Shown piece by piece: positions 1 through 64,000 of a stretch of DNA of 64,000 nt. A model generated the notes under the pieces. It had not been told where the DNA came from, did not search any database, and saw only the letters and a list, made by a program, of their open reading frames with translations. Positions within the stretch are counted from its first letter, which is position 1. Each line of letters begins with the position of its first letter. Position numbers and translations under genes: made by a program. Source of the stretch: a virus; the IMG/VR virus record IMGVR_UViG_3300005748_000015, positions 1 through 64,000 of that record; one strand, given 5' to 3'.

Positions 1-513
1 GTAAAAAATATATATGTAAAAATTACACAGTGAGCTTGCAATAAAAAAATATTCTGTTATATGAGACAAGACAAACATTTTTTATTTAACAGCCTTATAT
101 AACAGAAAAAAAATATAATGCAATGGAGAGTGTAAAATTTACAGGGGTAAAAGAAAAAATCGTGTCAAGAAAAATCGACAGAAAAAATGCCATCGTGAAA
201 ATATTACACACTAAAACATGAAATTGTCTAAAATATTGACAGCTCAGATTGCCCTCAGAACGCTTTAAAAAAGTTTTAAAGGTCATTGTAAGCGTAAAAA
301 TAAAATGCTTCAGAACAAAGATTTGAAGCTCTCAGGACTATGAAGATAATTTATTTAGGGTATTTTGCTATGGAGAAATTTCACACCACGAAAAACATTT
401 CTTGACACGCTCTTTTTTGGAGAGTCAAGAAAAAAATGAAAAAAATGATCTTTTTTAACCAAGACAAGAAAAAACTATGTAAATATTACCGATTGTAAAA
501 TTTACTCTTTTTG

Positions 514-542
514 TTGCGTTGAACGGATTTTTTTAGTAGAAT
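514..542 (+). promoter_or_regulatory. sigma70-type promoter for ORF 574
   Basis: TTGCGT-17-TAGAAT upstream of RBS GAAGGA. Confidence 0.55.
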
Positions 543-573
543 TTATGGGTAACATTCACTTGAAGGATTTTTT

Positions 574-954
574 ATGGCTATTGCAAAAAAATTGAAAAAC
601 AAAAAAATGAACGATGCAACTTTTGAACTTAGAAAGCAAGTAATGAAAATTTTATACGATATCAAAAAAGTTGTTGACCTACCACGCATCACAGTAAGAA
701 TAACGGAAAACAAAGGCAATACGCTAGGACTTGCTAGGATGGGCGAAAATGCAATATGGATACCCGAAAGGATGTTTACAGGTAACGATAAACTTTATTT
801 ATACGAGGTTATTTGTCATGAGCTAGTTCATGCGGTTTTGAATATTGGGCATGATGAAAGATGTCCCTTGATGCGTTCCCATATTGGTCAAAGGGCGTTG
901 ACAAGGGATCAATGCAATTTTATTTTAAAAACATATTGGAATAAAACAAGGTAA
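574..954 (+). CDS. Small zincin/metzincin-like metallopeptidase
   Basis: HELVHAVLNIGH (HExxHxxxxxH) followed by CPLM Met-turn-like motif; RBS present. Confidence 0.7.
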   Translation: MAIAKKLKNKKMNDATFELRKQVMKILYDIKKVVDLPRITVRITENKGNTLGLARMGENAIWIPERMFTGNDKLYLYEVICHELVHAVLNIGHDERCPLMRSHIGQRALTRDQCNFILKTYWNKTR

Positions 955-960
955 AAATTA

Positions 961-984
961 CAGGGTATATTTTAATATGCCCTG
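961..984 (+). terminator. Hairpin after ORF 574
   Basis: CAGGGTATATT / AATATGCCCTG inverted repeat; no clear U tract. Confidence 0.45.
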
Positions 985-1029
985 ACTTGCATTAGAATAC
1001 TAGAGAGACATTAACACAGGAGATTTTTT

Positions 1030-1227
1030 ATGAGAATTTATTTGTACACACCAATTTTTAAAGAGGGCGTAGAACTAGACGGGCAACTTGTTTACGGAAA
1101 AAACGAAAAGGAAGGTCTAATTGAAATGAGAAAATTTTTCGATGATGATGAACTAGAGGGCGTTGAGGTCTTAGGTTGGACTACTGAGGACGACCCTGAC
1201 TATCAAGACTATATCGAACTCAGTTAA
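1030..1227 (+). CDS. Small acidic hypothetical protein
   Basis: AGGAGA RBS, 65 aa, D/E-rich, followed by terminator. Confidence 0.75.
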   Translation: MRIYLYTPIFKEGVELDGQLVYGKNEKEGLIEMRKFFDDDELEGVEVLGWTTEDDPDYQDYIELS

Positions 1228-1240
1228 ACAAAAAAGATTT

Positions 1241-1268
1241 AGGGGCATGATGCCCCTTTTTCCTTTTT
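1241..1268 (+). terminator. Rho-independent terminator
   Basis: AGGGGCA-TGA-TGCCCCT followed by T tract. Confidence 0.8.
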
Positions 1269-1420
1269 CCTAACTTATATAACACAAAAAAAATACATTG
1301 GAATAGCTATGGTAAAATTTACACACTATATATTTTTTACATACCATATTGCAATACTTGCAAAAATCATTATAATGATTGTATAAGCAATTAAGCTTAT
1401 GCACATTCAGGAGATTTTTT

Positions 1421-1714
1421 ATGACTAAAACACAATTCAGAAGCCTTTACTCAGAGTACCGCAAAGCACAATTTAACTTTGAATCATATATGAGTGAAAG
1501 AAATTTCCCATGTGGTCACGATGATATGTTATACGAGCGTTTCGAGGCATCTACTCAAGAGTGGCTTGAAAAGCACCCTGAACTAAAAAATATCATAGAT
1601 GGAATTTATGACTGGGATTTTTTACAAGAAAGGGCACAAAGTTTTAATGCTTTTGGTTCACGTCCCAAAAGTTTAAAAATTGAGCTGCGCAGGAAATATC
1701 CTAAAATAGCTTAA
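1421..1714 (+). CDS. Hypothetical protein
   Basis: GGAGA RBS before ATG 1421; promoter TTGCAA-16-TATAAT upstream; terminator downstream. Confidence 0.75.
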   Translation: MTKTQFRSLYSEYRKAQFNFESYMSERNFPCGHDDMLYERFEASTQEWLEKHPELKNIIDGIYDWDFLQERAQSFNAFGSRPKSLKIELRRKYPKIA

Positions 1715-1723
1715 CTTGTCAAT

Positions 1724-1756
1724 GCCCTATGTAATTATTACATGGGGCTTTTTTTT
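1724..1756 (+). terminator. Rho-independent terminator containing a TGTAA-N3-TTACA copy
   Basis: GCCCTATGTAA-TTA-TTACATGGGGC then T8. Confidence 0.8.
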
Positions 1757-2265
1757 GCATAAAATCAAAACCATATATTTTTTACATACCATATTGCAAT
1801 ACATTTTTTATCTGTTATATACACACCATAAAATAAAAACTATTTATAAATCAATCACCATATATTTCATAAAATAAAAACTATATGTTTTTTGCACCAC
1901 TTACAGCACCCTTTTCTATATAGGGAACTGACAGCCTCTCACAGCCTCTCACAGCCGCCGCACCGATGCCCTACCCTACCCATTGCCCTACCGCTTGGAA
2001 CGTCTTAGACGCTAAATATGGACATGGTTTTCTACAGCCTTTACTGATGGGGCTTCACAGCGTTGCACCCTATAACCTAGTGAAATCACGACAAGGTTTT
2101 TTACAGGTGTGTAAGTTTTACACTGGGTATTGACAGGGGGGAGAGTCAAGCACAAAGAACGCACCGTGTAACTTTTACAGGGCTAGGGCTAGGGCATATA
2201 ACAGATAAGTTTTAAAAATCAAGTAAGGTTTATAAAATTTACATAGGGATAGGTCTTTTTCAAAG

Positions 2266-2282
2266 TTGGCACACCCCTTGCA
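2266..2282 (+). promoter_or_regulatory. sigma54 (RpoN) -24/-12 element
   Basis: TTGGCACACCCCTTGCA, GG-N10-GC, close match to consensus TGGCAC-N5-TTGCW. Confidence 0.65.
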
Positions 2283-2288
2283 TACACA

Positions 2289-2305
2289 TGCAAATCTGAT
2301 GCCAA
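2289..2305 (-). promoter_or_regulatory. sigma54 (RpoN) -24/-12 element, opposite orientation
   Basis: Reverse strand reads TTGGCATCAGATTTGCA, GG-N10-GC. Confidence 0.6.
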
Positions 2306-2317
2306 AACCGGGGTTTA

Positions 2318-2517
2318 GGGACTCCTAAATTTTTTTTAGATAACTATACCCGAAATATCCTGAGCCTCATTTTTCGTTTTTGCAAAAACAACTTCCTAAT
2401 TTCAAAAACTTAGGTACCATATTTAGGTACCATACGGGTCCCTTTTTTATTTTAGGTACCATATTTCACCGGAGTCCCACCATAGGAGTCCCTACGACTA
2501 GGTACCATAGGAGTCCC
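2318..2517. repeat. Cluster of short repeats TAGGTACCATA x4 and GGAGTCCC x3 (plus one inverted)
   Basis: TAGGTACCATA at 2411, 2424, 2453, 2499; GGAGTCCC at 2471, 2485, 2510; GGGACTCC at 2318. Confidence 0.85.
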
Positions 2518-2538
2518 GTTCCAGTAGCTTCCAGCACA

Positions 2539-2769
2539 CTACTGCAAGTGCCTGGTATCAATCTCAACGGTAGGCAATCCGACACGCCTCTTTCGCCAGG
2601 CCCAGTAAACGTGAGACAAAACATGCCGCAGCATCCCACGCCTAAAAATGTGTTTAAGGTGAGACTTCACATGCTTTCCATGGTCTTCAAATATCAATAC
2701 CTTGGCTTCACGAGGATCGCAATTTTCAGCTCTTATCAATAATTCACTATCACTAATCATATTCTCCAT
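2539..2769 (-). CDS. Hypothetical protein
   Basis: AAGGGG RBS; last gene of the - strand run. Confidence 0.5.
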   Translation of the reverse strand: MENMISDSELLIRAENCDPREAKVLIFEDHGKHVKSHLKHIFRRGMLRHVLSHVYWAWRKRRVGLPTVEIDTRHLQ

Positions 2770-2830
2770 TTGGCCCCCTTAATAAGTTTCATCCAGCTCT
2801 TCCTCCCAAGCTCTAAAAGACACACACCTA

Positions 2831-3238
2831 TCACCAGTTAGTCTGAGCACCCTTTTCTTTTCCATAGAGTCTGCAACCCCAATACGTCATGCGTTCCTTG
2901 TCAAAGTGCTTGCTATAATGTTTGTTGCTTTTCATAAGCGACACACACGCATCTTCAAAGCTTTTTCCCCAAGCTGTGCCTAAAAAAGTATCCCTAGTCC
3001 ATTTGCCTTCAGTTTCGTTTGCACAGTAGCCTTCTGACCATATCTCGTACTCAGTCAGTCCAGCCTGTGCCTGTGCTGACAATTTTTTCTTATATATTAA
3101 TTGTGTCTCCATAACAGTTTGTGCAACATAACGCAGCATTTCAGCTTGCTGCTTAGTAAGCTTGCCATTAGTCATGCCACGAACTATCTCTGAAGCTATA
3201 TGTTTAATTTCTTTTTTTAACTGCTTATCATTTGTCAT
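2831..3238 (-). CDS. Hypothetical phage protein
   Basis: Start at ATG 3238 overlapping upstream stop; C-terminal EIWSEGY...SFEDAC...YWGCRLY segment looks like a real domain. Confidence 0.7.
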   Translation of the reverse strand: MTNDKQLKKEIKHIASEIVRGMTNGKLTKQQAEMLRYVAQTVMETQLIYKKKLSAQAQAGLTEYEIWSEGYCANETEGKWTRDTFLGTAWGKSFEDACVSLMKSNKHYSKHFDKERMTYWGCRLYGKEKGAQTNW

Positions 3239-3429
3239 AAACTCACCTTTGAACTCAACAGGCAAGCTATGGGGGTTACAGGAACGAGAACCTCTGCCAC
3301 ATAAAACTTGCCGCAATCAATTTGTGTACCATTTTCTGAAATGTTGCCCAAAGCCGTTAGAACTCCGAACACAAAACATATACTCAAATAAATAGTTAGA
3401 CCAAATAAAATTGATTTACATAATTCCAT
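3235..3429 (-). CDS. Small membrane protein
   Basis: N-terminal hydrophobic helix, GAGGG RBS. Confidence 0.6.
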   Translation of the reverse strand: MELCKSILFGLTIYLSICFVFGVLTALGNISENGTQIDCGKFYVAEVLVPVTPIACLLSSKVSL

Positions 3430-3482
3430 ATACTTACCCTCAAAATTTTCAAAAAAATCGCCCAGCGATGTGAGAGACTTTT

Positions 3483-3761
3483 TTATATATTTAACTCTTC
3501 TCCATACTTCTTTTTATATAAATATTTATAAATTCTTTTGCTTTCAAAAGTAAATGAGATAAATCCAATATCTAAAAAAATTAGAGGAAAATCGCCATCA
3601 GGTGTATAGGGATTTGTTTTTAATATATCTATATCAAATTGCATTCTTTTATATATAGAAAATAAAACTCCAAACAGTTGAAAACTAAACAAAGGAATTA
3701 TTGAAAAATCTATTGTTTCTTTATTTATTTCTTCTCTAAGTATTTCATCGATATTTTTCAT
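3483..3761 (-). CDS. Hypothetical protein
   Basis: GGAG RBS, operon packing. Confidence 0.6.
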   Translation of the reverse strand: MKNIDEILREEINKETIDFSIIPLFSFQLFGVLFSIYKRMQFDIDILKTNPYTPDGDFPLIFLDIGFISFTFESKRIYKYLYKKKYGEELNI

Positions 3762-3763
3762 TT

Positions 3764-4153
3764 TTAATTCTCCTTCAAAAATTTTTTTATTGCTTTGTGT
3801 ATATCCCGTGCATGTTGTCTGCTGCTATAGCTGTAATGCATTGAATTTACTTTGTTAAGTTCTTTTTCTATCACGTCTAAAATATCTGCGCTGTCAGAGT
3901 TTTCAGGCATGTATACAGTCATTCCATCTCCTTCAACAATAGTCAGGGAGACAGGAAGCTCTTTTTTATTGAAGTGTTCGTATATAAGTCTGTCATATTC
4001 GTTTTTAAAAGGAGTCCCGGTTCCACTTTTACCAGCTACTGTCATCAATTTCATCTCAGGAGACACGTCAGGAGTTCCTTTTTGTTCTACAGTAGAATGT
4101 TTTTTGCAAAGTTTTTCGTAATCATCTAATGGTAAATATATAATTGCACTCAT
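3764..4153 (-). CDS. Hypothetical protein
   Basis: GGAGGG RBS before ATG 4153. Confidence 0.65.
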   Translation of the reverse strand: MSAIIYLPLDDYEKLCKKHSTVEQKGTPDVSPEMKLMTVAGKSGTGTPFKNEYDRLIYEHFNKKELPVSLTIVEGDGMTVYMPENSDSADILDVIEKELNKVNSMHYSYSSRQHARDIHKAIKKFLKEN

Positions 4154-4169
4154 TATGCCCTCCAAGACA

Positions 4170-4376
4170 TTATAAAACAGATTTTTCCATTTCTAGTTCA
4201 GCTTTTATGTGTATTTCGTTATAATCCTTGTTTGTGTAGTATGCAACGTCCAAAACCTTTAAAAAATACATTTTTGAAGCAATATCATCCTCATATATTA
4301 TCTTTTCACCATTTCTTGGCACAACTGCTGTCTGATAATCAAAAAAACCCTCATCATACTCTACATAAACTCTCAT
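4170..4376 (-). CDS. Hypothetical protein
   Basis: AAGGA RBS before ATG 4376. Confidence 0.6.
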   Translation of the reverse strand: MRVYVEYDEGFFDYQTAVVPRNGEKIIYEDDIASKMYFLKVLDVAYYTNKDYNEIHIKAELEMEKSVL

Positions 4377-4772
4377 TTGTCGTCCTTTTCGCATTTTTTA
4401 ATATTATTTACACGCTTTAGAGCGTCTTTCCACCATTTATCTAGCTTTTTTTAGCTTTAAACACCTCAGAAGCATAAGTTACACCATTTTCTTCTCTTAA
4501 ATCGTGCAAATTCTTGTCAGAATGCCTATTTAGCTCTTGAAATCGCTTATTTTTGTCTTTTTTTCTGCTCATTTTCTTTTTCTAACCTATAAACTCTAAC
4601 TTTTAGCCTTAAAATTGCCTGTAAAAGCATTAATTGTGTAATACAAAGTATGGAAACTACTAAAATTACGTGATTTTCGACCATTTTTACTCCCAAAAAC
4701 AGCATTTATTGATAATATTCTACCACAAAATATACATAAAAAAAGAAAAAGTTCGCTTTTCCTTTTGCTCTG

Positions 4773-4797
4773 AATCTTTAAATTAAGTGATATTATA
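4773..4797 (+). promoter_or_regulatory. Putative late promoter AATCTTTAAA(-N-TGATATTATA)
   Basis: Same 10-mer precedes structural blocks at 4773, 13783, 16310, 19041, 30559. Confidence 0.7.
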
Positions 4798-4814
4798 TTG
4801 ATAGAGGAAAATAT

Positions 4815-7325
4815 ATGGCTGATAATAACAATAACATTCAAGTTGGAGTTAATTTAGACTCTACTCAGCTTGAAAAAGAATTTAAACAGTTACAGTCAAA
4901 ACTGAAAAACATGAGAGGAATCTCTCCAGGCTTAACTGATTCTCCTAGAGATATGCAAATGAAACAGGCTTTTCAAAGGTCTGAAAGTATGCATAGGGAA
5001 AAATTAGTTAAAATATACGAAAAACAAGACAAAATAATAAACGATTTGTTAAAAAAAGAAAAAGAATTAAGTAAAGAACTTGATGGTAAAATAAAAAGTC
5101 AAGAAAAATTAAACAAATTACAACAAGACTATATAGATAACACTAACAAACTAGCTCAAGTAAAACAAAGCCAGCAAACAATCAGTAAATCAATGTGTCC
5201 TATAGGAACTAGGTATGATCCCACAACAGGCCAGTGTGTACCAGACGATGGTGGCGGTGGCGGTGGCGGTGGCCCTGGAGGGCCACCACCTAAAGGCCCA
5301 GGTTATAAAGGTAAACTTATTAATCCTAAATTATTCGGTATTCCTGGTGCTGTAATTGGTGCTGCTGGTTCTATGATAGGTTATGGAACTAGTATAGCTG
5401 CCCAAGAAATGACCAAAGAGGGAAGGCTCGCAGGAGCTAGGGCTGGTATTGCTGGTGCTGTAGGTGAAGCTGCAACTTTACAACAACAAAGACGTGGTTA
5501 CGAAATGGATTTTTTTGCTCAAGAAAGAGCAGATGCAGCAAAAGCTTCTATGAAAAAAATGGAAGCTATGAGATTAGAAGATAAAGGTAGTATTTTAAAA
5601 CAAACGCTGGTAGGTGCTGGTGCTGGTGCTGCTACAGGTGCTGTTTACGGAGCTAAACTCGGAGGTGCTGCTGGCTCTGTCGTTCCAGCGGCAGGGACAG
5701 TAGCTGGTATGCTTTTAGGCGGTACAGGTGGTGGTGTTTTGGGCGGCATAGGTGGTGGTGTTTTAGGCTTTGCAAATGCCATGAGAGATGAAAGAAAAAG
5801 GTCTATGCTTTTTGACCCAGAAGCCTATAAACAATTTGTAGGTGCTGGTGGTGCTGAAGAGTATAAAAAGACATTGGAAAGTTATAAAACTCAAAACTTT
5901 TCAAAAATAAAAGCACAAGAATATTTTGAAAGAAATAAAGAAAATATGATAAAAATGCAACGTGCATTTGGCCTTAGTGACGAAGAACTTTTTGGTGGTG
6001 AAGAATCCTTATATAAAAGAGCAGCAAGAGCTGGTTTTACAGAAAATGAAATCAATAGATCAGCTATGGGAATTCAACAAGCTGGTGGTACAACTAAAGC
6101 TGGTAAAGAAGGTGCAGTTTTTGCTGCACAAATGGAAAGAGGTTTAGACCTTACAAATGCCGCCTCTTTAATTGGTAAAATTTCTAGTAGAACAGGAATG
6201 GGTGGAGCCGAATCTAAAGACGAAGTAATTAGAATGTATGCCGAGGCCACTAGGATTGGTCTTGATGAATCTGAAGTTAGAGGTCTATTAGAGACATCTA
6301 CTCAAATGGCATTGCAAAGTGGTATATCAGCAGATGAAATTCAGCAAGCTTTACAATCTGGTTTGGTTGTACAATCACAAAAAGGTATTCAAGCTGCACA
6401 ATCGGCTTTTCAAAGAATCAAAGGAAAAACAGGTCAAATGGGCGGTATTAGAGGTCAATTGGCTATGGCAGAATTTGGCTCTAAAGAAATGACCAATTTA
6501 TTACAAGAAGCTGGTGGAGAAGGTACTAAAGGATTTAGTTTTAAAGAAATAGGGTATATAACATCTCAAAGTGTCGATAAAATATCTGCTGATAATGATG
6601 CAATATCTGGTATGTTGTTGGAAAGAGGTATTGATCCTAACTCAGAACAAGGCAAAAAAATAATTGCCGAAATGAGAAAAAGATCAATGAGGTCTACAAT
6701 CAAAAACAAAGGAAGAGAAAAAGCTTTAGAAAATTATAGAAAAGCTCAAGCTGCTGTGAAAAATGCTTCGAGTCCAGAGGCAAAAGCTGAAGCTGAAAAG
6801 AAATTAAAAATTGCATATTCAAAAGCAGCTCAATTTGGCGCAATAGAAGAAGGAGAAGCTTTTGGTGGGCAAGGCACAATAGAACAAAAAGCTGAGACAT
6901 CTATGACAGCTGAAGGTTTAGCTACTGGTATGGTTGGTGGAAAAGCCGCAGATACAGAAGCTGTTAAGAAAAAAATGGAGAAAGATACTGGAAGAGCTTA
7001 TGATCAAAATTTAAATAGAGCTTCTAGAGATTTTCAAGCTGAACTTAAAAGACTTACAAAACAACTAGAAGAAGATGGTGGCGAATTAAGGGCATCATTT
7101 AAAAGAATTAGTAGTTCAAAAGAAATCGATGAATTATTAGCAGCAATGGACAAGTTAGCCGCAGCTGGAGATTTATCAGCTGACGCACAAAAAGCTTACA
7201 ACAAAGCAATCCAAAAAAGACAAAATGCTTTAGATGCTGAAGAATCTAAACGAATAATAGATGACATGAACCCTTTTAGAACAAATTATGTACAATATGG
7301 AGCGTCAAGCGATACAGAGGATTAA
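4815..7325 (+). CDS. Tail tape measure protein
   Basis: 836 aa, helical Ala/Gly/Lys-rich, Gly-zipper hydrophobic segments, directly upstream of hub and spike genes. Confidence 0.75.
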   Translation: MADNNNNIQVGVNLDSTQLEKEFKQLQSKLKNMRGISPGLTDSPRDMQMKQAFQRSESMHREKLVKIYEKQDKIINDLLKKEKELSKELDGKIKSQEKLNKLQQDYIDNTNKLAQVKQSQQTISKSMCPIGTRYDPTTGQCVPDDGGGGGGGGPGGPPPKGPGYKGKLINPKLFGIPGAVIGAAGSMIGYGTSIAAQEMTKEGRLAGARAGIAGAVGEAATLQQQRRGYEMDFFAQERADAAKASMKKMEAMRLEDKGSILKQTLVGAGAGAATGAVYGAKLGGAAGSVVPAAGTVAGMLLGGTGGGVLGGIGGGVLGFANAMRDERKRSMLFDPEAYKQFVGAGGAEEYKKTLESYKTQNFSKIKAQEYFERNKENMIKMQRAFGLSDEELFGGEESLYKRAARAGFTENEINRSAMGIQQAGGTTKAGKEGAVFAAQMERGLDLTNAASLIGKISSRTGMGGAESKDEVIRMYAEATRIGLDESEVRGLLETSTQMALQSGISADEIQQALQSGLVVQSQKGIQAAQSAFQRIKGKTGQMGGIRGQLAMAEFGSKEMTNLLQEAGGEGTKGFSFKEIGYITSQSVDKISADNDAISGMLLERGIDPNSEQGKKIIAEMRKRSMRSTIKNKGREKALENYRKAQAAVKNASSPEAKAEAEKKLKIAYSKAAQFGAIEEGEAFGGQGTIEQKAETSMTAEGLATGMVGGKAADTEAVKKKMEKDTGRAYDQNLNRASRDFQAELKRLTKQLEEDGGELRASFKRISSSKEIDELLAAMDKLAAAGDLSADAQKAYNKAIQKRQNALDAEESKRIIDDMNPFRTNYVQYGASSDTED

Positions 7326-59441: not shown

Positions 59442-62400
59442 TTAAACAATATCTTCTACTATTAAATCTTCAATATTTGTGTGATAATTTTCTTTGTTCA
59501 TTCTTCTACGCATAAACAAAAATACTACAGAATTTTTACTCAAGTTATCTGGATATTTCAAAACACCCGTTTCATAATCAGGCCATACTACCAACTCATC
59601 TAAATATCCATCAACATCAACAATTAATTTAAGAGCTTTTTTCTCACCATTTTTATAAGAAAACTCTTTAGATTCAACAACATACGCTGCCACACAGAAT
59701 TCTATGATTTTATCGCTGTCAGGTTGATATTCAATATTTTTAATATTTTGATAGGCCTTGCCATTAATCAGTCTTGTTTCTTTGCCATAACTACTAATAG
59801 CAAAGCTTGAAACGCTAGTGTTTATAATTTTTACAGTTTTACAATTTTTTTTGATGATATCCGTCAGCTGTATTGGCATTGTTGGGAATATCGATTTTTT
59901 TAATATAAAATCTTTGACTCGATTCATAAAAATATATTTCTCATCAATCTTGCCTTCTTTAATGACATGTTTACAGCGTGAAGTTTTAGGATGCTCTTTT
60001 GCAGCCTGAATAAATTTATCAATGGGTTGATCCCAATAAACTTCATTTTCAGACTTTTTCATAATTTTATCTTTATATTTATAAACTTCTACAGCGTTTT
60101 CAAACTCTTGCATTTTTTCCATCAAGTTAGAGTCAGGTTTAAAAAGACTATCTAAAACACCTACATGTATTAGTTTAAGTGTTAAAGAATGGCCTACAGC
60201 TTTTTTATCTACAAAATCTTGTATATCCTTATAAGGTCTACCATTTGTAATCTTATTAGCTACTTTCTCTCCAAGCCCTTTTAATACCGATAGTTTACTT
60301 CTAATAGTGCCAGAATTATAATCAATCACCATCTCTTCTTTTGACAAGTTGATATCTGGTGGCGATAAAATACCCCTAACATGTGGCCATAATACTTCTG
60401 TGATTTCTTTCTCTTCTGCATTTGACAGTACAGCTGCCCACCATTCTAATGGATAGTGATGTTTTAAATATGCACAAGCATATGCAATCATGGCATAGGC
60501 AACAGCGTGTGATTTGTTAAAACCATATCTACCAAATGTCTCAATCATTCCCCAAACTTCTGTCGCTGTTTTTTCATCAACAATACCATTGTTAACAGAA
60601 GCTTCAATAAATTGAGGTTTAAGCTCTTGAATCATTCTTAGTTTTTTCTTACCAACGGCAATACGAACATCTTCGGCTTTCTCGTCGTCCCACCCTGTCA
60701 TTTCCTTGGTAAGCTTTGTAACCTGTTCTTGATAGACAAAAACACCCTGAGTCTCAGGTAAAAGTCTATTAAGGATTTCAATCTCACCCTTACTTCGACC
60801 GTGTACACGTTCGATATATTCTTCGGCCATATTACGACCTGTCTTTTCATCAACAAAGTCTAATGGCCCTGGTCTTACAAGCGATGTAACAACCGCACAT
60901 TCTTCGATTGTTTTGGGCTTCATTTCCATTACGAATGGTGTAACCGATGTAGTATTTAATTGAAATACGGTTTCAGTCTTGCCTTCGCCAAGCATTTGAA
61001 ATACTTCAGGCTCTTCGGGTAAATCCCATATATAACAATATCCACCTTTATGATTAAAATATCCTGATTCTAATTTTTTATCCGAATCTTGTCGGTGGTT
61101 AATATATTTTAATGCCAATTCAATATCATTAAGACACTTAACAACTAGAAAATCGTACTTGTTTAGACCAGCCGCCTCAACTTCTGATGGCTCATATTGA
61201 GTTACGTTTTCATTGTCACCAACTTTCATTAAAGGAATAGTCTCAGTCAAAGCTTTTTCTGACAACACAAATCCACAATTATGAACTAGAATTCCATTTA
61301 TATATCCAACATTTTCTAAGGGTTCGTTAAAATCCCATACAGGAGATTTTCCATAATCTTCTATGTACAGACATTTTATCTTATTTGGTTTATATATTGT
61401 CCATTTAGCATCTTCTATTATTTGTCTTAGTCTTTTAGACTTATAATCTTGATAAAAACCTACTAAATTTTCAAAAGCAATTTTGTTTGTAACATGCGGT
61501 ATTGAAAGTGTTGCTGTGGATTTACTTGTATAAACTCCATTGTAGTGTTCGGTTTCTTTGGGTTTAGAATAAGAACAACTCGTATTAATATCGTGAGAAT
61601 TTAACCAAATTGCAATGTCTGAAATTAATAACTTAGAAGTTAATTTAATTGCAACAGTAGGTCTTGTTGATAAACAATATCCATTAGCACTAAATAAACC
61701 GCACATAAAATCTCTTTGACACTTCAGGTTCCACTCCCAAAAAACACGAGGCAGTCTTTTACTATGTGTTTTTTGGTTAATTTTAAACTCTACTGGAAGG
61801 TTGTAGGTTTTATATTTATCTTTTCTTTTTTTATCAGATGTTATTTTATAACCTTTTTTATTTAACCAACTAAATATTCTTTTCTTTGCTGCATCATCTT
61901 TTTTTGGAGTAAAATAAAACTCAAACCTATCTTTATCCGATTTTATATATGCCCCATCATTTAAAAACCACCCCAAAGCAAAAGCCATATCACTTTCTAC
62001 TTCCCCATCTTCAGAAGTGTTAATAAATGGTTTATAAGATACAGTTTCGCCTTTTAAATCCTTAGCTTCAATTTCTTTATCTCCAACCATAAACCTATGA
62101 TCTGGTGTACATTGAATTGACACTCCATTATTCATAGATACAACTACAGTATCTTTTACTCCAGAATACCATGTTTTAATAGGTTTATTATCAGCAAATT
62201 CTGGGGCTAAATCTATAAAATCAACTTTACCATTGCTGTCCACTAAAGTACCAGATGCAAAACACGCATGTCGCCCATTTTGTCTTGATATACCCAGAGT
62301 GCGCTTGACAATTTCCCATTCGTCAGGTCTTTCTTTTGTGTATTTTAATAACTTGTAATCTTTTTCTAACAACCCTGGAATATGATTTCCATCACTATCT

Positions 62401-64000
62401 TCATATCCAAACACAAAATCTTGATCTGATATACCTTGCGGAGTAGCCTCAATTGATTTGGCAAGTTTTTCTATTTCATCCTCGACCGATCCATATTTAA
62501 ACCTATTAACATCTCTAATAGCTGACTTAAGTTTCATAAGAGTACGGGTAGATAACTGTGCCCATCTGTCTTTGTAATTGTTTTCAAAGAACCCATCAGA
62601 CCCTATAAGCAAATCTCTGTCAGGCAAATCAACGTCAACATCGGGTAAAGTACCCTTAAGAATACGTCCTAATGTTAGGAATCTTGAAAAATATAGACCG
62701 TATTTAATAGGGTCTACCTGTGTTATACCCATACAATACATGAGAAAAGAACCGCCAGCAGAACCCCTTGCAGGACCTACAACACGTCCTTGATCAGTAT
62801 AATAATTTAAAACTTTACTAATTGGAAAAAAATATGGCAGCAAATCAAGCTTGCCATTATTATGAATGACTTCTATTTCATGTCTCAGTCTTTTTACATG
62901 CTCAGGATTTTTTTCGTCAAATCTGCCGATACTTTTAATTAAATCCATTGTAGCTTTTAAATTATTGTCGTGCTCTTTTACAAGTTGATAGTCGTATTCA
63001 AGTTTAAAATCATCAAAATTACTAGCCCACTTGTAGCTATTTTCTGTTAGTGTTTGTATAAAATCTACATGGTAATGCTTACTAAAGTACACATTTACAT
63101 CGTTATTTGATCTCATATATAGTTTAGTATACATTCTACAGTCATCACCAAGCTTTAAATCTTGAACTAATTTATCGTCTTTGTTTGCAAAATATGAATA
63201 GTCATTTATAAGCAATAAAAACCCGTACTTTTTAGACAGCATGATCATAAAATCATTGTACTTTTTAAATATGTCGGTATCAATATCTTTAAAATCTTTA
63301 TGATTACAGGCAGATACAATATCTTTGTTTACATTATACCCTATTCCATTTACATATATTCTTTTGATAGATTTGTGCTTGCCATGTTTTTCAGCCACTT
63401 CTTCTAGTGATACCCTAAATGTTTTAGCGTAGCTAGTTTCTGCCATAAGCGAAGAATCAAGCGTTGCCGTTTCACCATTGACAAATGTAAATATACTAGA
63501 AGTTACCCATTTTTTATTTAACTCCATTGGCAAGATAGAACCGTATAAATTTTTGCCAAACATTTCATGGAGTTTTTTACAAATTTTTGCACCGACAACA
63601 GGCTCGTTAACAAGTAAGTTTTTAGTTACGATATCCTGTGGCCCACCTAAAGATACCGTAAATTCTTTTGTTGAAAAATCTTTTAGATCATTCCAGTTAA
63701 AAGTAGGATATTCTTGATCCAATATTTGGATTGTGTCTCTATTTTTTTCTGATATTTTTTTGACAAGAAATTGGTAAGCATTTTGTGTTTTGGCATGAAC
63801 AGTAATTGTATAGTATTTGATTTGTTCAGCTTTTGTACCTTTAATAATGTCACATTCTTTATCGACAAAATAAAGCTCACAGCCAGCAATAAATTTAAGA
63901 CCTTCCTGTTTAGCCTTACTATAGCCTTTCATGATATTGGTTAAATAACCGTTGTCGGTACAAACACAATATCCTGTATCTAGCTCTTTTGCTTTTTTAA
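59442..64000 (-). CDS. dnaE: DNA polymerase III alpha subunit with intein, 5' end beyond the window
   Basis: GPARGSAGG, PDVDVD, GVFVYQEQ, YGFNKSHA; frame stays open upstream of 63932 (KAKEL..TDNG, PHP domain). Confidence 0.95.
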   Translation of the reverse strand, partial: KKAKELDTGYCVCTDNGYLTNIMKGYSKAKQEGLKFIAGCELYFVDKECDIIKGTKAEQIKYYTITVHAKTQNAYQFLVKKISEKNRDTIQILDQEYPTFNWNDLKDFSTKEFTVSLGGPQDIVTKNLLVNEPVVGAKICKKLHEMFGKNLYGSILPMELNKKWVTSSIFTFVNGETATLDSSLMAETSYAKTFRVSLEEVAEKHGKHKSIKRIYVNGIGYNVNKDIVSACNHKDFKDIDTDIFKKYNDFMIMLSKKYGFLLLINDYSYFANKDDKLVQDLKLGDDCRMYTKLYMRSNNDVNVYFSKHYHVDFIQTLTENSYKWASNFDDFKLEYDYQLVKEHDNNLKATMDLIKSIGRFDEKNPEHVKRLRHEIEVIHNNGKLDLLPYFFPISKVLNYYTDQGRVVGPARGSAGGSFLMYCMGITQVDPIKYGLYFSRFLTLGRILKGTLPDVDVDLPDRDLLIGSDGFFENNYKDRWAQLSTRTLMKLKSAIRDVNRFKYGSVEDEIEKLAKSIEATPQGISDQDFVFGYEDSDGNHIPGLLEKDYKLLKYTKERPDEWEIVKRTLGISRQNGRHACFASGTLVDSNGKVDFIDLAPEFADNKPIKTWYSGVKDTVVVSMNNGVSIQCTPDHRFMVGDKEIEAKDLKGETVSYKPFINTSEDGEVESDMAFALGWFLNDGAYIKSDKDRFEFYFTPKKDDAAKKRIFSWLNKKGYKITSDKKRKDKYKTYNLPVEFKINQKTHSKRLPRVFWEWNLKCQRDFMCGLFSANGYCLSTRPTVAIKLTSKLLISDIAIWLNSHDINTSCSYSKPKETEHYNGVYTSKSTATLSIPHVTNKIAFENLVGFYQDYKSKRLRQIIEDAKWTIYKPNKIKCLYIEDYGKSPVWDFNEPLENVGYINGILVHNCGFVLSEKALTETIPLMKVGDNENVTQYEPSEVEAAGLNKYDFLVVKCLNDIELALKYINHRQDSDKKLESGYFNHKGGYCYIWDLPEEPEVFQMLGEGKTETVFQLNTTSVTPFVMEMKPKTIEECAVVTSLVRPGPLDFVDEKTGRNMAEEYIERVHGRSKGEIEILNRLLPETQGVFVYQEQVTKLTKEMTGWDDEKAEDVRIAVGKKKLRMIQELKPQFIEASVNNGIVDEKTATEVWGMIETFGRYGFNKSHAVAYAMIAYACAYLKHHYPLEWWAAVLSNAEEKEITEVLWPHVRGILSPPDINLSKEEMVIDYNSGTIRSKLSVLKGLGEKVANKITNGRPYKDIQDFVDKKAVGHSLTLKLIHVGVLDSLFKPDSNLMEKMQEFENAVEVYKYKDKIMKKSENEVYWDQPIDKFIQAAKEHPKTSRCKHVIKEGKIDEKYIFMNRVKDFILKKSIFPTMPIQLTDIIKKNCKTVKIINTSVSSFAISSYGKETRLINGKAYQNIKNIEYQPDSDKIIEFCVAAYVVESKEFSYKNGEKKALKLIVDVDGYLDELVVWPDYETGVLKYPDNLSKNSVVFLFMRRRMNKENYHTNIEDLIVEDIV
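61278..62264 (-). mobile_element. Intein (329 aa) with LAGLIDADG endonuclease in dnaE
   Basis: RHA|CFASGT ... CTPDH ... LGWFLNDG, GLFSANG ... LVHN|CG. Confidence 0.92.

What the first reader, a model, noticed from the sequence alone, without database searches (positions are those of the whole stretch)
2266..2305. Two face-to-face sigma54 (-24/-12) elements in a phage non-coding region
Seen: TTGGCACACCCCTTGCA (+) and TTGGCATCAGATTTGCA (-), both exact GG-N10-GC, 6 bp apart with different spacers. Only the consensus positions are complementary, which argues for protein recognition rather than a hairpin. Known: RpoN holoenzyme binds these sites but needs an enhancer-binding AAA+ activator, and sigma54 promoters are rarely reported in lytic phages. 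Each predicted start lies inside the other promoter, and neither points at a convincing ORF. Inference: a mutually exclusive switch, a sigma54 sponge or roadblock where two gene runs converge, or a source of ncRNA or replication primer tied to host state.
Basis: partly seen in the sequence, partly recalled or inferred. Interest (0 to 1): 0.7.

Follow-up and report, generated by a model that had tools for sequence, protein, structure and literature searches.

The report
Mirror-paired sigma-54 sites in phage
An uncultured marine phage keeps two opposed copies of the DNA site read by bacterial sigma-54 RNA polymerase at the border between its variable early genes and a conserved block; such mirror pairs are common in phage DNA and rare in bacteria, and what they do is untested.

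Summary
TTGGCACACCCCTTGCA (+, 2266-2282) and TTGGCATCAGATTTGCA (-, 2289-2305) are the only exact TGGCAY-N5-TTGCW sites in the 128-kb phage record.

The site is not chance. Two relatives (G001, G002) have a homologous pair 2.5 kb upstream of the same 836-aa gene. They also carry 17 and 18 exact boxes, nearly all in about 9 kb to its left.

The mirror pair is a phage-wide motif:
- At least 86 viral contigs hold it with a 1-7 nt gap, against 13 stretches in 596 Gb of bacterial genomes.
- Unforced positions follow real sigma-54 sites.
- The spacers avoid complementarity, so it is not a hairpin.

No sigma-54 or activator gene was found in the phage records.

Best reading: host sigma-54 polymerase docks here in either of two mutually exclusive orientations and fires outward when a host activator is present. 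The site lies in a gene-free zone beside conserved iterons. Binding, firing and host identity are untested.

This scan has met the same motif class several times on other DNA. My searches found no paper describing it.

The parts
2266..2282 (+). + sigma-54-type box TTGGCACACCCCTTGCA (GG 2268-2269, GC 2280-2281); predicted start about 2293
   Evidence: The relatives' counterpart TGGCATATATATTGCA has a wholly different spacer but the same consensus letters.
2283..2288 (.). 6-nt gap TACACA between the two -12 elements
   Evidence: Gap 6 is at the edge of the phage-wide distribution: gaps 2, 3, 4, 5 and 6 occur 30, 23, 28, 29 and 4 times.
2289..2305 (-). - sigma-54-type box TTGGCATCAGATTTGCA (GG 2303-2302, GC 2291-2290); predicted start about 2278
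   Evidence: It is most like the relatives' inner, slightly decayed - box: 13 and 12 of 16 letters, spacer 3 of 5. It has C after TGGCAT, which is rare (1%) among phage half-sites.
2306..2327 (+). Conserved flank AAACCGGGGTTTAGG followed by an inverted copy of the GGAGTCCC repeat
   Evidence: Inverted repeat I13.
2310..2338 (+). Terminator-like hairpin followed by T8. A + transcript started at about 2293 would meet it after about 45 nt.
   Evidence: The T run is not present in G001/G002.
2410..2520 (+). Iteron field: TTAGGTACCATA x3 and ACCATA-GG(A)GTCCC x3, with a T-rich tract
   Evidence: families D4, D6, D8. Conserved in G001/G002.
2109..2179 (.). Two 13-bp dyads TGTAA-N3-TTACA (2110, 2167), about 125 and 180 nt upstream of the predicted + start; candidate activator sites
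   Evidence: (D11). Not present in the relatives' first 20 kb, so weak.
2211..2238 (+). Weak sigma-70-like promoter TTTAAA-16-TAAAAT, 28 nt upstream of the + box
   Evidence: 9 of 12. Relatives have TTGACA-17-TATACT 42-55 nt upstream of their + box.
1724..1757 (+). Strong intrinsic terminator ending the left (+) gene run
   Evidence: 11 pairs, T8.
2413..2431 (-). Terminator-like hairpin ending the right (-) gene run
1758..1904 (.). A+T-rich stretch with three copies of CATAAAAT(A/C)AAAAC...
   Evidence: D1, D2. Relatives have an A+T-rich stretch followed by G+C-rich short repeats in the same relative place.

Best explanation
The two boxes are selected docking sites for the host's sigma-54 RNA polymerase holoenzyme. 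Their -12 elements are only 6 bp apart, so only one polymerase can sit there at a time, in either orientation. The two predicted starts (about 2293 rightward, about 2278 leftward) point away from each other. The pair is therefore one overlapped, outward-firing promoter unit. It would stay silent as a closed complex until an enhancer-binding ATPase, which the phage records do not encode, opens it.

The pair lies in a gene-free zone about 650 bp long, bounded by the terminators of both converging gene runs. This zone is the border between a hypervariable small-gene region on the left and a conserved block on the right. The pair abuts a conserved iteron field. Its products would be non-coding: a short rightward RNA into the iterons, and a leftward RNA through an A+T-rich repeat stretch. 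I think they most likely serve to open or mark this cis-acting region, in the manner of transcriptional activation of an origin or packaging site, or to counter-transcribe the converging runs. Either way phage DNA transactions would be tied to the state of the host.

Shown: the sequence, its conservation, the family-wide and phage-wide recurrence, and the lack of hairpin selection. Inferred: sigma-54 binding, mutual exclusion, firing, and what the transcripts do.
For: (1) Both boxes are exact, and they are the only two in 128 kb.

(2) Homologous locus in relatives G001 and G002/G003:
- It lies 2.5 kb upstream of the 836-aa gene homologue, as in the window.
- The - box sits next to the conserved AAACCGGGGTTTAGG.
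- Spacers differ while consensus letters are kept.

(3) Box numbers in relatives:
- G001 has 17 exact boxes, 15 of them within 8.0-17.3 kb.
- G002 has 18, all within 9.1-18.5 kb.
- The reversed-pattern control gives 0 in both.

(4) Between G001 and G002, in the 14 of G002's 18 boxes kept by the flank-identity filter (at least 60 of 100 flank letters identical), identity is 152 of 154 at consensus positions, 62 of 70 in spacers and 1290 of 1400 in flanks.

(5) In 196 half-sites from 98 unique phage pairs, positions that the search did not force follow real sigma-54 sites:
- T before TGGCA in 59%.
- Purine after TGGCAY in 97%.
- The same position is a purine in all 29 Salmonella ChIP-supported sites visible in the passage of PMC3844500, and only 10 of those 29 meet the strict pattern that both window boxes meet (counted by eye).

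(6) The class is not a hairpin. Spacer complementarity is 1.19 of 5, against 1.69 +/- 0.11 in shuffles. In the window it is 0 of 5.

(7) No DNA-binding protein is shared across the 59 lineages that carry pairs. The widest-shared neighbours are terminase (11 lineages) and portal (4). This favours a host factor.

(8) In G002, 4 of 9 + boxes end 32-103 nt ahead of a + ORF, as promoters would.

(9) There is a precedent. Phage YuA uses a sigma-54-like promoter, seen by a 5'-end method (passage of PMC10914365).

(10) Terminators on both sides leave the pair in a quiet zone. Conserved iterons lie beside it.
Against: - The host is unknown, so the presence of rpoN is unproven.
- The nearest cultured phage is Myxococcus phage Mx1 (capsid 52.6%, portal 46.8%). 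It has 0 exact boxes.
- No activator gene and no conserved enhancer were found. The TGTAA-N3-TTACA dyads upstream of the + box are absent from relatives.
- Neither box faces a credible gene.
- The - box has C after TGGCAT, seen in 1% of phage half-sites.
- The + box is not kept in register. In G001/G002 the intact - box lies 35-37 nt from the + box, and the inner partner has decayed by 1-2 letters.
- In one 90-95% similar contig from an RNA library, 11 letters are missing within 2269-2286.
- In relatives, 4 of 9 - boxes lie 0-16 nt after the stop of a + gene and face back into it. This does not fit simple promoters.
- Only this one pair exists in the 128 kb held for this phage.
- RNA contigs cover 2215-2462 in one run, but contigs cannot show starts or strand, and the library may hold DNA.
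Confidence: 0.45

Rival explanations
1. Silent docking site. Host sigma-54, or its holoenzyme, binds but is never activated here. The pair would act as a sink that withdraws sigma-54 from host promoters as phage DNA multiplies, or as a fixed protein block or boundary on the DNA.
For: - The closed complex is stable and silent without an activator (passages of PMC3844500).
- The phage records encode no activator.
- There are no genes downstream of either box.
- Mirror pairs and dense arrays recur in phages and are near chance level in bacteria.
- In relatives, boxes lie 11-31 nt downstream of sigma-70-like -10 elements, where a bound complex would sit in the path of the other polymerase.
Against: - One pair per genome copy is a weak sink.
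- Both gene runs already have terminators, so no block is needed here.
- In relatives some + boxes sit at promoter distance from genes.
- Nothing measures occupancy.
Confidence: 0.2
2. Operator of a phage-encoded dimeric DNA-binding protein whose half-site happens to resemble the sigma-54 boxes.
For: - The site has palindromic layout.
- It lies in a control-like non-coding region beside iterons and small unknown genes.
- L002 shows a similar pair between a divergent gene and a sigma-70-like promoter.
Against: - Most boxes in relatives are solitary, not palindromic.
- The gap varies from 2 to 6 nt across phages, which a rigid dimer would not tolerate.
- Unforced positions follow sigma-54 sites.
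- No shared binding protein was found across 59 lineages, though only about 5-7 kb of flank was seen per locus.
Confidence: 0.1
3. Relic of repeated regulatory cassettes. In this family, boxes with sigma-70-like promoters are scattered through a hypervariable small-gene region and may promote cassette exchange, as PeSL elements do in T4-like phages. The window's pair would be the last such unit at the border, kept by descent more than by present use.
For: - The pair lies exactly where homology with relatives begins. Proteins to its right match at 45-54%, and no protein to its left matches.
- Relatives have many boxes on both strands, at cassette borders.
- The inner - box has decayed in G001/G002.
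- PeSL precedent: abstract of PMC4122927.
Against: - Consensus letters are better kept than spacers or flanks.
- Every genome seen keeps at least one intact + box and one intact - box at this locus.
- Exact sigma-54 consensus is not needed for recombination.
Confidence: 0.1
4. RNA or DNA hairpin (terminator, processing site or cruciform) formed by the two arms.
For: The 48-nt stretch can fold at -12.8 kcal/mol on the + strand (z -3.1) and -15.6 kcal/mol on the - strand (z -1.85).
Against: - The spacers pair at 0 of 5 positions. Across the class, complementarity is below chance.
- No T run follows the arms.
- Sequence, not pairing, is what is conserved.
- No Rfam match at the site.
- True hairpins found by the same pattern in Actinomycetota have complementary spacers.
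Confidence: 0.05

Closest known systems
Bacterial enhancer-dependent sigma-54 (RpoN) promoters, e.g. the glnK, rsr, rpoH and pspA sites listed for Salmonella in PMC3844500 (passages seen)
   Same: Same bipartite TGGCAY-N5-TTGCW core with GG-N10-GC. Same preferences at neighbouring positions. The same need for an outside activator is expected.
   Different: Two boxes are interleaved face to face with 6 nt between the -12 elements. There is no downstream gene and no recognised enhancer. The site is carried by a phage that encodes neither sigma-54 nor an activator. Such pairs are near chance level in 596 Gb of bacterial genomes.
Sigma-54-like promoter P015 of Pseudomonas phage YuA (Ceyssens et al. 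2008, as cited in PMC10914365; passage seen)
   Same: A virulent phage that relies on host sigma-54 for some of its transcription.
   Different: The passage seen names one sigma-54-like promoter region (P015) in YuA, with promoter activity recorded. Here there is a mirrored pair without a gene, and relatives carry 17-18 boxes on both strands.
PeSL (promoter-early stem-loop) cassettes of T4-like phages (PMC4122927 abstract seen; PMC2839356 search listing only)
   Same: Short composite regulatory units repeated through hypervariable small-gene regions, at cassette borders. In relatives many boxes follow a sigma-70-like promoter.
   Different: PeSLs are a sigma-70 early promoter plus a terminator stem-loop. 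Here the repeated unit is a sigma-54 box, and the pair is not selected as a stem-loop. Exchange at boxes was not tested.
Transcription-activated phage replication origins (lambda ori, T7 primary origin, T4 oriF/oriG; recalled, no call)
   Same: A promoter beside iterons and A+T-rich DNA in a gene-free stretch.
   Different: No initiator gene was identified next to it. The replication genes lie 50 kb away. No sigma-54 promoter is known to me at any origin.
Face-to-face sigma-54 box pairs noted earlier by this scan on other phage DNA
   Same: Inward-facing exact boxes, a short gap, non-complementary spacers, enrichment in viral contigs.
   Different: Here there is a single pair with gap 6, at the rare end of the distribution. 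It lies at a conserved locus whose relatives show the pair decaying and being replaced.

Membership tests
Sigma-54 (-24/-12) promoter | GG and GC doublets exactly 10 nt apart within a TGGCAY-N5-TTGCW core | tested here: met
   both boxes are exact.
Sigma-54 (-24/-12) promoter | Neighbouring positions follow the extended consensus (pyrimidine before TGG, purine after TGGCAY; consensus recalled, checked against the sites) | tested here: inconclusive
   The + box has T before and A after, so it fits. The - box has T before but C after, which occurs in 1% of 196 phage half-sites and in 0 of the 29 Salmonella sites visible.
Sigma-54 (-24/-12) promoter | The organism that reads it has sigma-54 | not testable with these tools
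   The host is unknown. The phage records G000-G003 have no Sigma54_DBD match.
Sigma-54 (-24/-12) promoter | An enhancer-binding AAA+ activator and its upstream binding sites | tested here: inconclusive
   No Sigma54_activat match reaches the family cut-off in G000-G003; the one weak hit, in G001 (E 0.035, 10.3 bits), is below it. Candidate dyads lie at 2110 and 2167, and iterons lie 130-240 nt upstream of the - start. None is shown to bind anything.
Sigma-54 (-24/-12) promoter | A transcript starts about 12 nt after the GC and depends on rpoN | not testable with these tools
   Only assembled contigs of RNA libraries were available. They cannot show starts or strand.
Sigma-54 (-24/-12) promoter | Drives a gene or operon on the same strand | tested here: not met
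   There is no credible same-strand ORF downstream of either box.
Phage mirror pairs of sigma-54 boxes (class seen in this scan; no paper found) | Two inward-facing exact boxes 1-7 nt apart | tested here: met
   Gap of 6 nt. 86 of 119 fetched viral loci have such a pair.
Phage mirror pairs of sigma-54 boxes (class seen in this scan; no paper found) | Spacers not complementary | tested here: met
   0 of 5 in the window. The class mean is 1.19, against 1.69 in shuffles.
Phage mirror pairs of sigma-54 boxes (class seen in this scan; no paper found) | Further boxes elsewhere in the same phage | tested here: not met
   None in the 128 kb held, which CheckV rates 80% complete. Met in relatives, with 17 and 18 boxes. 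The window's contig is cut 2.2 kb to the left of the pair, where relatives have their boxes.
Intrinsic terminator / structured RNA | Contiguous G+C-rich stem followed by a T run, or covariation that keeps pairing | tested here: not met
   No Rfam match at the site.
PeSL-like mobile regulatory cassette | Repeated promoter-containing unit at indel borders in a hypervariable region | tested here: inconclusive
   The pair lies at the border of homology. Boxes in relatives follow sigma-70-like promoters. Exchange breakpoints were not analysed.

The most novel reading that the evidence does not exclude
Mirror pairs and arrays of perfect sigma-54 boxes are a widespread phage cis-element that no paper found in my searches describes. 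They would capture the host's sigma-54 polymerase without needing genes to express. They would act as an activator-gated, two-way entry point for polymerase at origins or cassette borders, or as a sink that disarms sigma-54-dependent host responses. On this reading the window shows the element at a conserved genome landmark, where it decays and is replaced but is never lost.
Probability: 0.3. Interest if true: 0.85.

Novelty: new variant of a known kind. Interest (0 to 1): 0.62.

Why it matters
Sigma-54 transcription is the one bacterial route that is silent until an ATP-driven activator fires it. It controls nitrogen, envelope-stress, RNA-repair and motility responses.

If phages of many lineages place perfect sigma-54 sites on their DNA, often mirrored and often without genes, then one of two things follows. 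Either they time parts of their programme by host physiology, or they hold this polymerase form for another purpose. Neither is part of current pictures of phage gene control.

This window adds a case that can be taken to the bench:
- It is a 40-bp site with clear mutant predictions.
- It sits at a conserved landmark next to iterons.
- The relatives show which letters are kept.
- In relatives, sigma-54 boxes usually follow sigma-70-type early promoters.

Tried and rejected
- **DNA search against cultured phages.** blastn of 1700-2800 against 50,697 phage records gave no match.
- **Close relatives.** A single-protein search for relatives in viral contigs found none.
- The 66-74% identical relatives of the 836-aa protein (P0002-P0006) could therefore not be read. 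They would be the best test of box conservation.
- **Metagenome scan.** It returned only 31-37% relatives. L133 has two boxes far from the expected place, and I did not find the homologous non-coding region in it.
- **Last viral scan.** It used a conserved non-coding word without a box. It returned 19 stretches; apart from the relatives already in hand (records G001, G002, G003), 15 looked like ordinary terminators of unrelated phages and one (L246) showed no such stem. It added no relatives.
- **Rfam.** Only weak matches (E 0.08-0.97), all at 1635-1804, none at the pair.
- **Gene context of the class.** I classified the context of 115 pairs with crude ORF calls. 73 fell inside some ORF of 60 aa or more, but only 4 inside an ORF of 200 aa or more. 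Without a gene finder this is inconclusive, and I draw nothing from it.
- **Protein atlas.** The look-up for the neighbouring 161-aa protein scored 0.82, which is uninformative.
- **RNA runs.**
  - All four runs laid were assembled contigs, so they give no starts, ends or strand.
  - X20 and most bins of X18 and X19 had no cover at the pair, which shows nothing.
  - The small word shares (0.05) of the RNA runs do not name a habitat.
  - For the X1 DNA contig over 2215-2435, only 5 of its 9 differences are listed. None is in 2266-2305, and the other 4 are not shown, so full identity of the boxes there is not established.
- **GC skew.** The cumulative minimum lies near 2-4 kb, but it follows gene strand and is no independent sign of an origin.
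- **Host.** Not identified. The promoter type (TTGACA-17-TATACT in relatives) and Mx1 as nearest cultured phage are hints only.
- **Not used.** Complex prediction and the structure tools, because no protein partner was in question.
- **Supplements.** Supplementary files of papers were not opened. The full site lists of PMC3844500 and the YuA promoter tables may bear on the consensus comparison.
- **Literature.** The claim that I found no paper on mirror-paired sigma-54 sites in phages rests only.
Full report
**What is there.** The window is the first 64 kb of a 128,193-bp IMG/VR virus record. The record is linear and CheckV rates it 80% complete.
- At 2266-2282 the + strand reads TTGGCACACCCCTTGCA. 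At 2289-2305 the - strand reads TTGGCATCAGATTTGCA. TACACA lies between them.
- The pattern TGGCAY-N5-TTGCW matches only these two places in the window. Shuffles give a mean of 0.30, and 5 of 100 shuffles have two or more matches anywhere.
- These are also the only exact matches in the whole record. Allowing one mismatch adds four scattered sites.
- The two spacers pair at 0 of 5 positions.
- No ORF of 30 aa or more overlaps 2165-2366.

One point needs restating. The start normally lies about 12 nt after the GC (recalled). On that rule the rightward start (about 2293) and the leftward start (about 2278) each lie inside the other box. The two transcripts would therefore run apart. 'Face-to-face boxes' means an interleaved divergent promoter pair that only one polymerase could occupy.

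**Setting in the genome.**
- A + run of small genes ends at 1714 with a strong terminator (1724-1757). A - run (2539-4705) ends at a terminator-like hairpin (2431-2413). The pair thus sits in a gene-free zone of about 650 bp between the two terminators.
- To its left lie A+T-rich repeats, short G+C-rich tandem repeats and two TGTAA-N3-TTACA dyads. To its right lie a terminator-like hairpin with T8 and a field of direct repeats.
- The phage is a large tailed phage. Its hits include a baseplate-J-like domain and baseplate- and tail-fibre-like proteins, DnaE-type polymerase, DnaB-like helicase, RecA-like and gp32-like proteins, ribonucleotide reductase, portal and major head protein.
- Its nearest cultured relative is Myxococcus phage Mx1: capsid 52.6%, portal 46.8%, DnaE 34.6% identity.
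- No sigma-54 DNA-binding domain was found in this record or in three related records. No sigma-54 activator domain reached the family cut-off; the only hit was a sub-threshold one in G001 (E 0.035).

**Relatives.**
- An alignment of homologues of the 836-aa protein (window 4815-7325) led to viral contigs G002 (50.6 kb) and G003, at 36% identity.
- A DNA word from the right flank of the - box led to G001 (129 kb).
- In all of them a + box and a - box lie about 2.5 kb upstream of the 836-aa homologue, as in the window.
- From the - box rightward, about 250 bp of non-coding DNA aligns well; over the whole 432-column alignment mean column identity is 75%. The proteins further right are only 45-54% identical.
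- Nothing to the left of the pair has a protein match. The pair therefore marks the border between a variable and a conserved part of the genome.
- Letter by letter, the window's - box matches the relatives' inner - box best: 13 and 12 of 16, spacer 3 of 5. That inner box has decayed by one or two consensus letters and lies 2 nt from their + box.
- The relatives carry an extra, perfect - box about 17-19 nt further right, next to the conserved flank.
- I infer that the mirror pair is ancestral at this locus, and that each genome keeps at least one intact box in each orientation.
- The + box spacer is wholly different between the window and the relatives, while its consensus letters are the same.
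- Against this, one contig from an RNA library, 90-95% like the window, lacks 11 letters within 2269-2286. No gaps are listed in the - box.

**The family is rich in boxes.**
- G001 has 17 exact boxes, 15 of them between 8.0 and 17.3 kb. G002 has 18, all between 9.1 and 18.5 kb. G003 has 5. The reversed control pattern gives 0 in each.
- This box-rich stretch is the small-gene region just to the left of the pair. The window's contig is cut 2.2 kb to the left of its pair. That may be why this record shows only one pair.
- Between G001 and G002, in the 14 of G002's 18 boxes kept by the flank-identity filter (at least 60 of 100 flank letters identical), identity is 152 of 154 at consensus positions, 62 of 70 in spacers and 1290 of 1400 in flanks.
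- In G002, 4 of 9 + boxes end 32-103 nt before a + ORF. But 4 of 9 - boxes begin 0-16 nt after the stop of a + ORF and face back into it.
- 8 of 18 boxes in G002, and 8 of the 15 in the first 20 kb of G001, have TATAC[TA] within 45 nt upstream on the same strand. The background is 6-7% of windows.
- Four boxes in each genome have a 10-11 of 12 match to TTGACA-N16/17-TATAAT; seven of the eight have TATACT as the second hexamer and 17-nt spacing.
- In this family a sigma-54 box therefore often lies just inside the transcript of a sigma-70-type promoter. The window's + box has a weak version, TTTAAA-16-TAAAAT, 28 nt upstream.

**The mirror pair across phages.**
- The exact layout of the window occurs in two unrelated viral contigs.
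- Gaps of 2, 3, 4, 5 and 6 nt occur 30, 23, 28, 29 and 4 times. All larger gaps together occur 41 times.
- 86 of the 119 loci have a gap of 1-7 nt.
- Complete scans for the other two orientations with gaps of 1-7 nt gave 31 stretches back to back (all at gap 6 or 7) and 20 in tandem.
- The same mirror pattern found 13 stretches in the 596-Gb collection of bacterial and archaeal genomes. My rough arithmetic for uniform base composition gives about one by chance.
- Of those 13, five (four from Actinomycetota, one from Prevotellaceae) are true hairpins with spacers complementary at 4-5 of 5 positions. One (L179) is the same contig as viral locus L048. Two MAG contigs carry 5-7 boxes and look like phage DNA.
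- The 121 viral loci fall into 59 lineages, the largest with 42 loci. The most widely shared neighbouring proteins are terminase (11 lineages) and portal (4). No DNA-binding protein is shared.

**Is it sigma-54-like beyond what the search forced?**
- In 196 half-sites from 98 unique pairs, the base before TGGCA is T in 59%.
- The base after TGGCAY is G in 59% and A in 38%.
- T is favoured two positions before TTGCA, at 56%.
- In the passage of PMC3844500 that I saw, all 29 listed Salmonella intergenic binding sites have a purine after TGGCAY. Only 10 of the 29 satisfy the strict pattern that both window boxes satisfy (counted by eye).
- The window's - box has C at that position, which is unusual.

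**Not a hairpin.**
- Across 88 unique pairs, the two spacers agree (that is, would pair) at 1.19 of 5 positions. Shuffled partners give 1.69 +/- 0.11. Many of these pairs come from one large lineage.
- The window stretch can fold at -12.8 and -15.6 kcal/mol, as any such palindrome must. No T run follows it, and no Rfam family matches.

**How it most likely works.** I commit to this reading. Host sigma-54 holoenzyme docks on the pair in one of two exclusive orientations. It stays closed until a host enhancer-binding ATPase acts. It then fires outward into non-coding DNA. The location is a quiet zone with conserved iterons on one side and A+T-rich repeats on the other, at a conserved genome landmark. 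This makes a cis-acting role such as opening an origin-like or packaging-like region the best guess. Counter-transcription of the two converging runs is the alternative output. I put sigma-54 binding at about 0.65 and the whole statement at 0.45. The rivals are a silent sink or block, a phage protein's operator, a relic of shuffling cassettes, and a hairpin. Each is set out with its evidence in its own section.

**Comparison and novelty.**
- The core is that of ordinary sigma-54 promoters. The tests for a downstream gene and for a recognised enhancer are not met or are inconclusive. The host is unknown. I therefore do not file the pair as a standard promoter.
- Phage YuA is a printed precedent for a sigma-54-like promoter in a virulent phage (passage of PMC10914365).
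- PeSL cassettes are a printed analogue for repeated regulatory units in variable regions (abstract of PMC4122927).
- Five literature searches found no paper on mirrored sigma-54 sites in phages.
- This scan's own earlier notes describe the same motif class on other phage DNA. I re-tested their main claims here: many viral contigs, near absence from bacteria, not a hairpin. My results agree.

**What this window adds.**
- A conserved locus where the pair can be followed through decay and replacement.
- The link between sigma-54 boxes and sigma-70-type promoters in the family.
- The border position of the pair.
- The finding that spacer complementarity is below chance.

Noticed in passing
window 2305-2520: About 250 bp of non-coding DNA with direct repeats (TTAGGTACCATA x3, ACCATAGGAGTCCC x3, one inverted copy at 2316-2327) aligns well with relatives (the whole 432-column alignment averages about 75% column identity), although their neighbouring proteins are only 36-54% identical. 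It looks origin-like or packaging-like.
   Followed up: partly
window 15, 131, 1730, 2110, 2167 (also 7765, 16346, 19762): The TGTAA-N3-TTACA palindrome has 8 exact copies in the 128-kb record, 5 of them in the first 2.2 kb. There are none in the first 20 kb of relatives G001/G002.
   Followed up: partly
L172 (G002) 9.0-18.5 kb; L171 (G001) 8.0-17.3 kb: Sigma-70-like promoters (several are exact TTGACA-17-TATACT) are followed 11-31 nt later by a sigma-54 box, on both strands of a small-gene region. Some - boxes start 0-16 nt after the stop of a + gene.
   Followed up: partly
G000 91488-97232 (- strand; L187 7488-13232): Terminase large-subunit matches are spread over two adjoining long ORFs. 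These also carry a GroEL-like stretch (phrog_5725, E 4.7e-81) and a LAGLIDADG endonuclease stretch. They may be inteins or fusions.
   Followed up: no
G000 79714-81384 (- strand); window 59442-63932 (-): The SbcD-like nuclease ORF also matches an HNH endonuclease family. The DnaE-type polymerase has a weak Intein_splicing match below the Pfam cut-off.
   Followed up: no
L173, L174, L178, L181, L185: The few bacterial hits of the mirror pattern in Actinomycetota and Prevotellaceae are true hairpins, with complementary spacers and paired flanks. They are a different kind of element from the phage pairs.
   Followed up: partly
L001 5340-5740: An unrelated viral contig packs many TGGCAC / GTGCCA half-boxes and two full mirror pairs next to ATTGTAAC-type repeats.
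   Followed up: no
window 5601-5800: Word depth is very high in all four laid runs (231-5614, against under 15 elsewhere). This suggests a short stretch shared with abundant other sequence, or a repeat.
   Followed up: no
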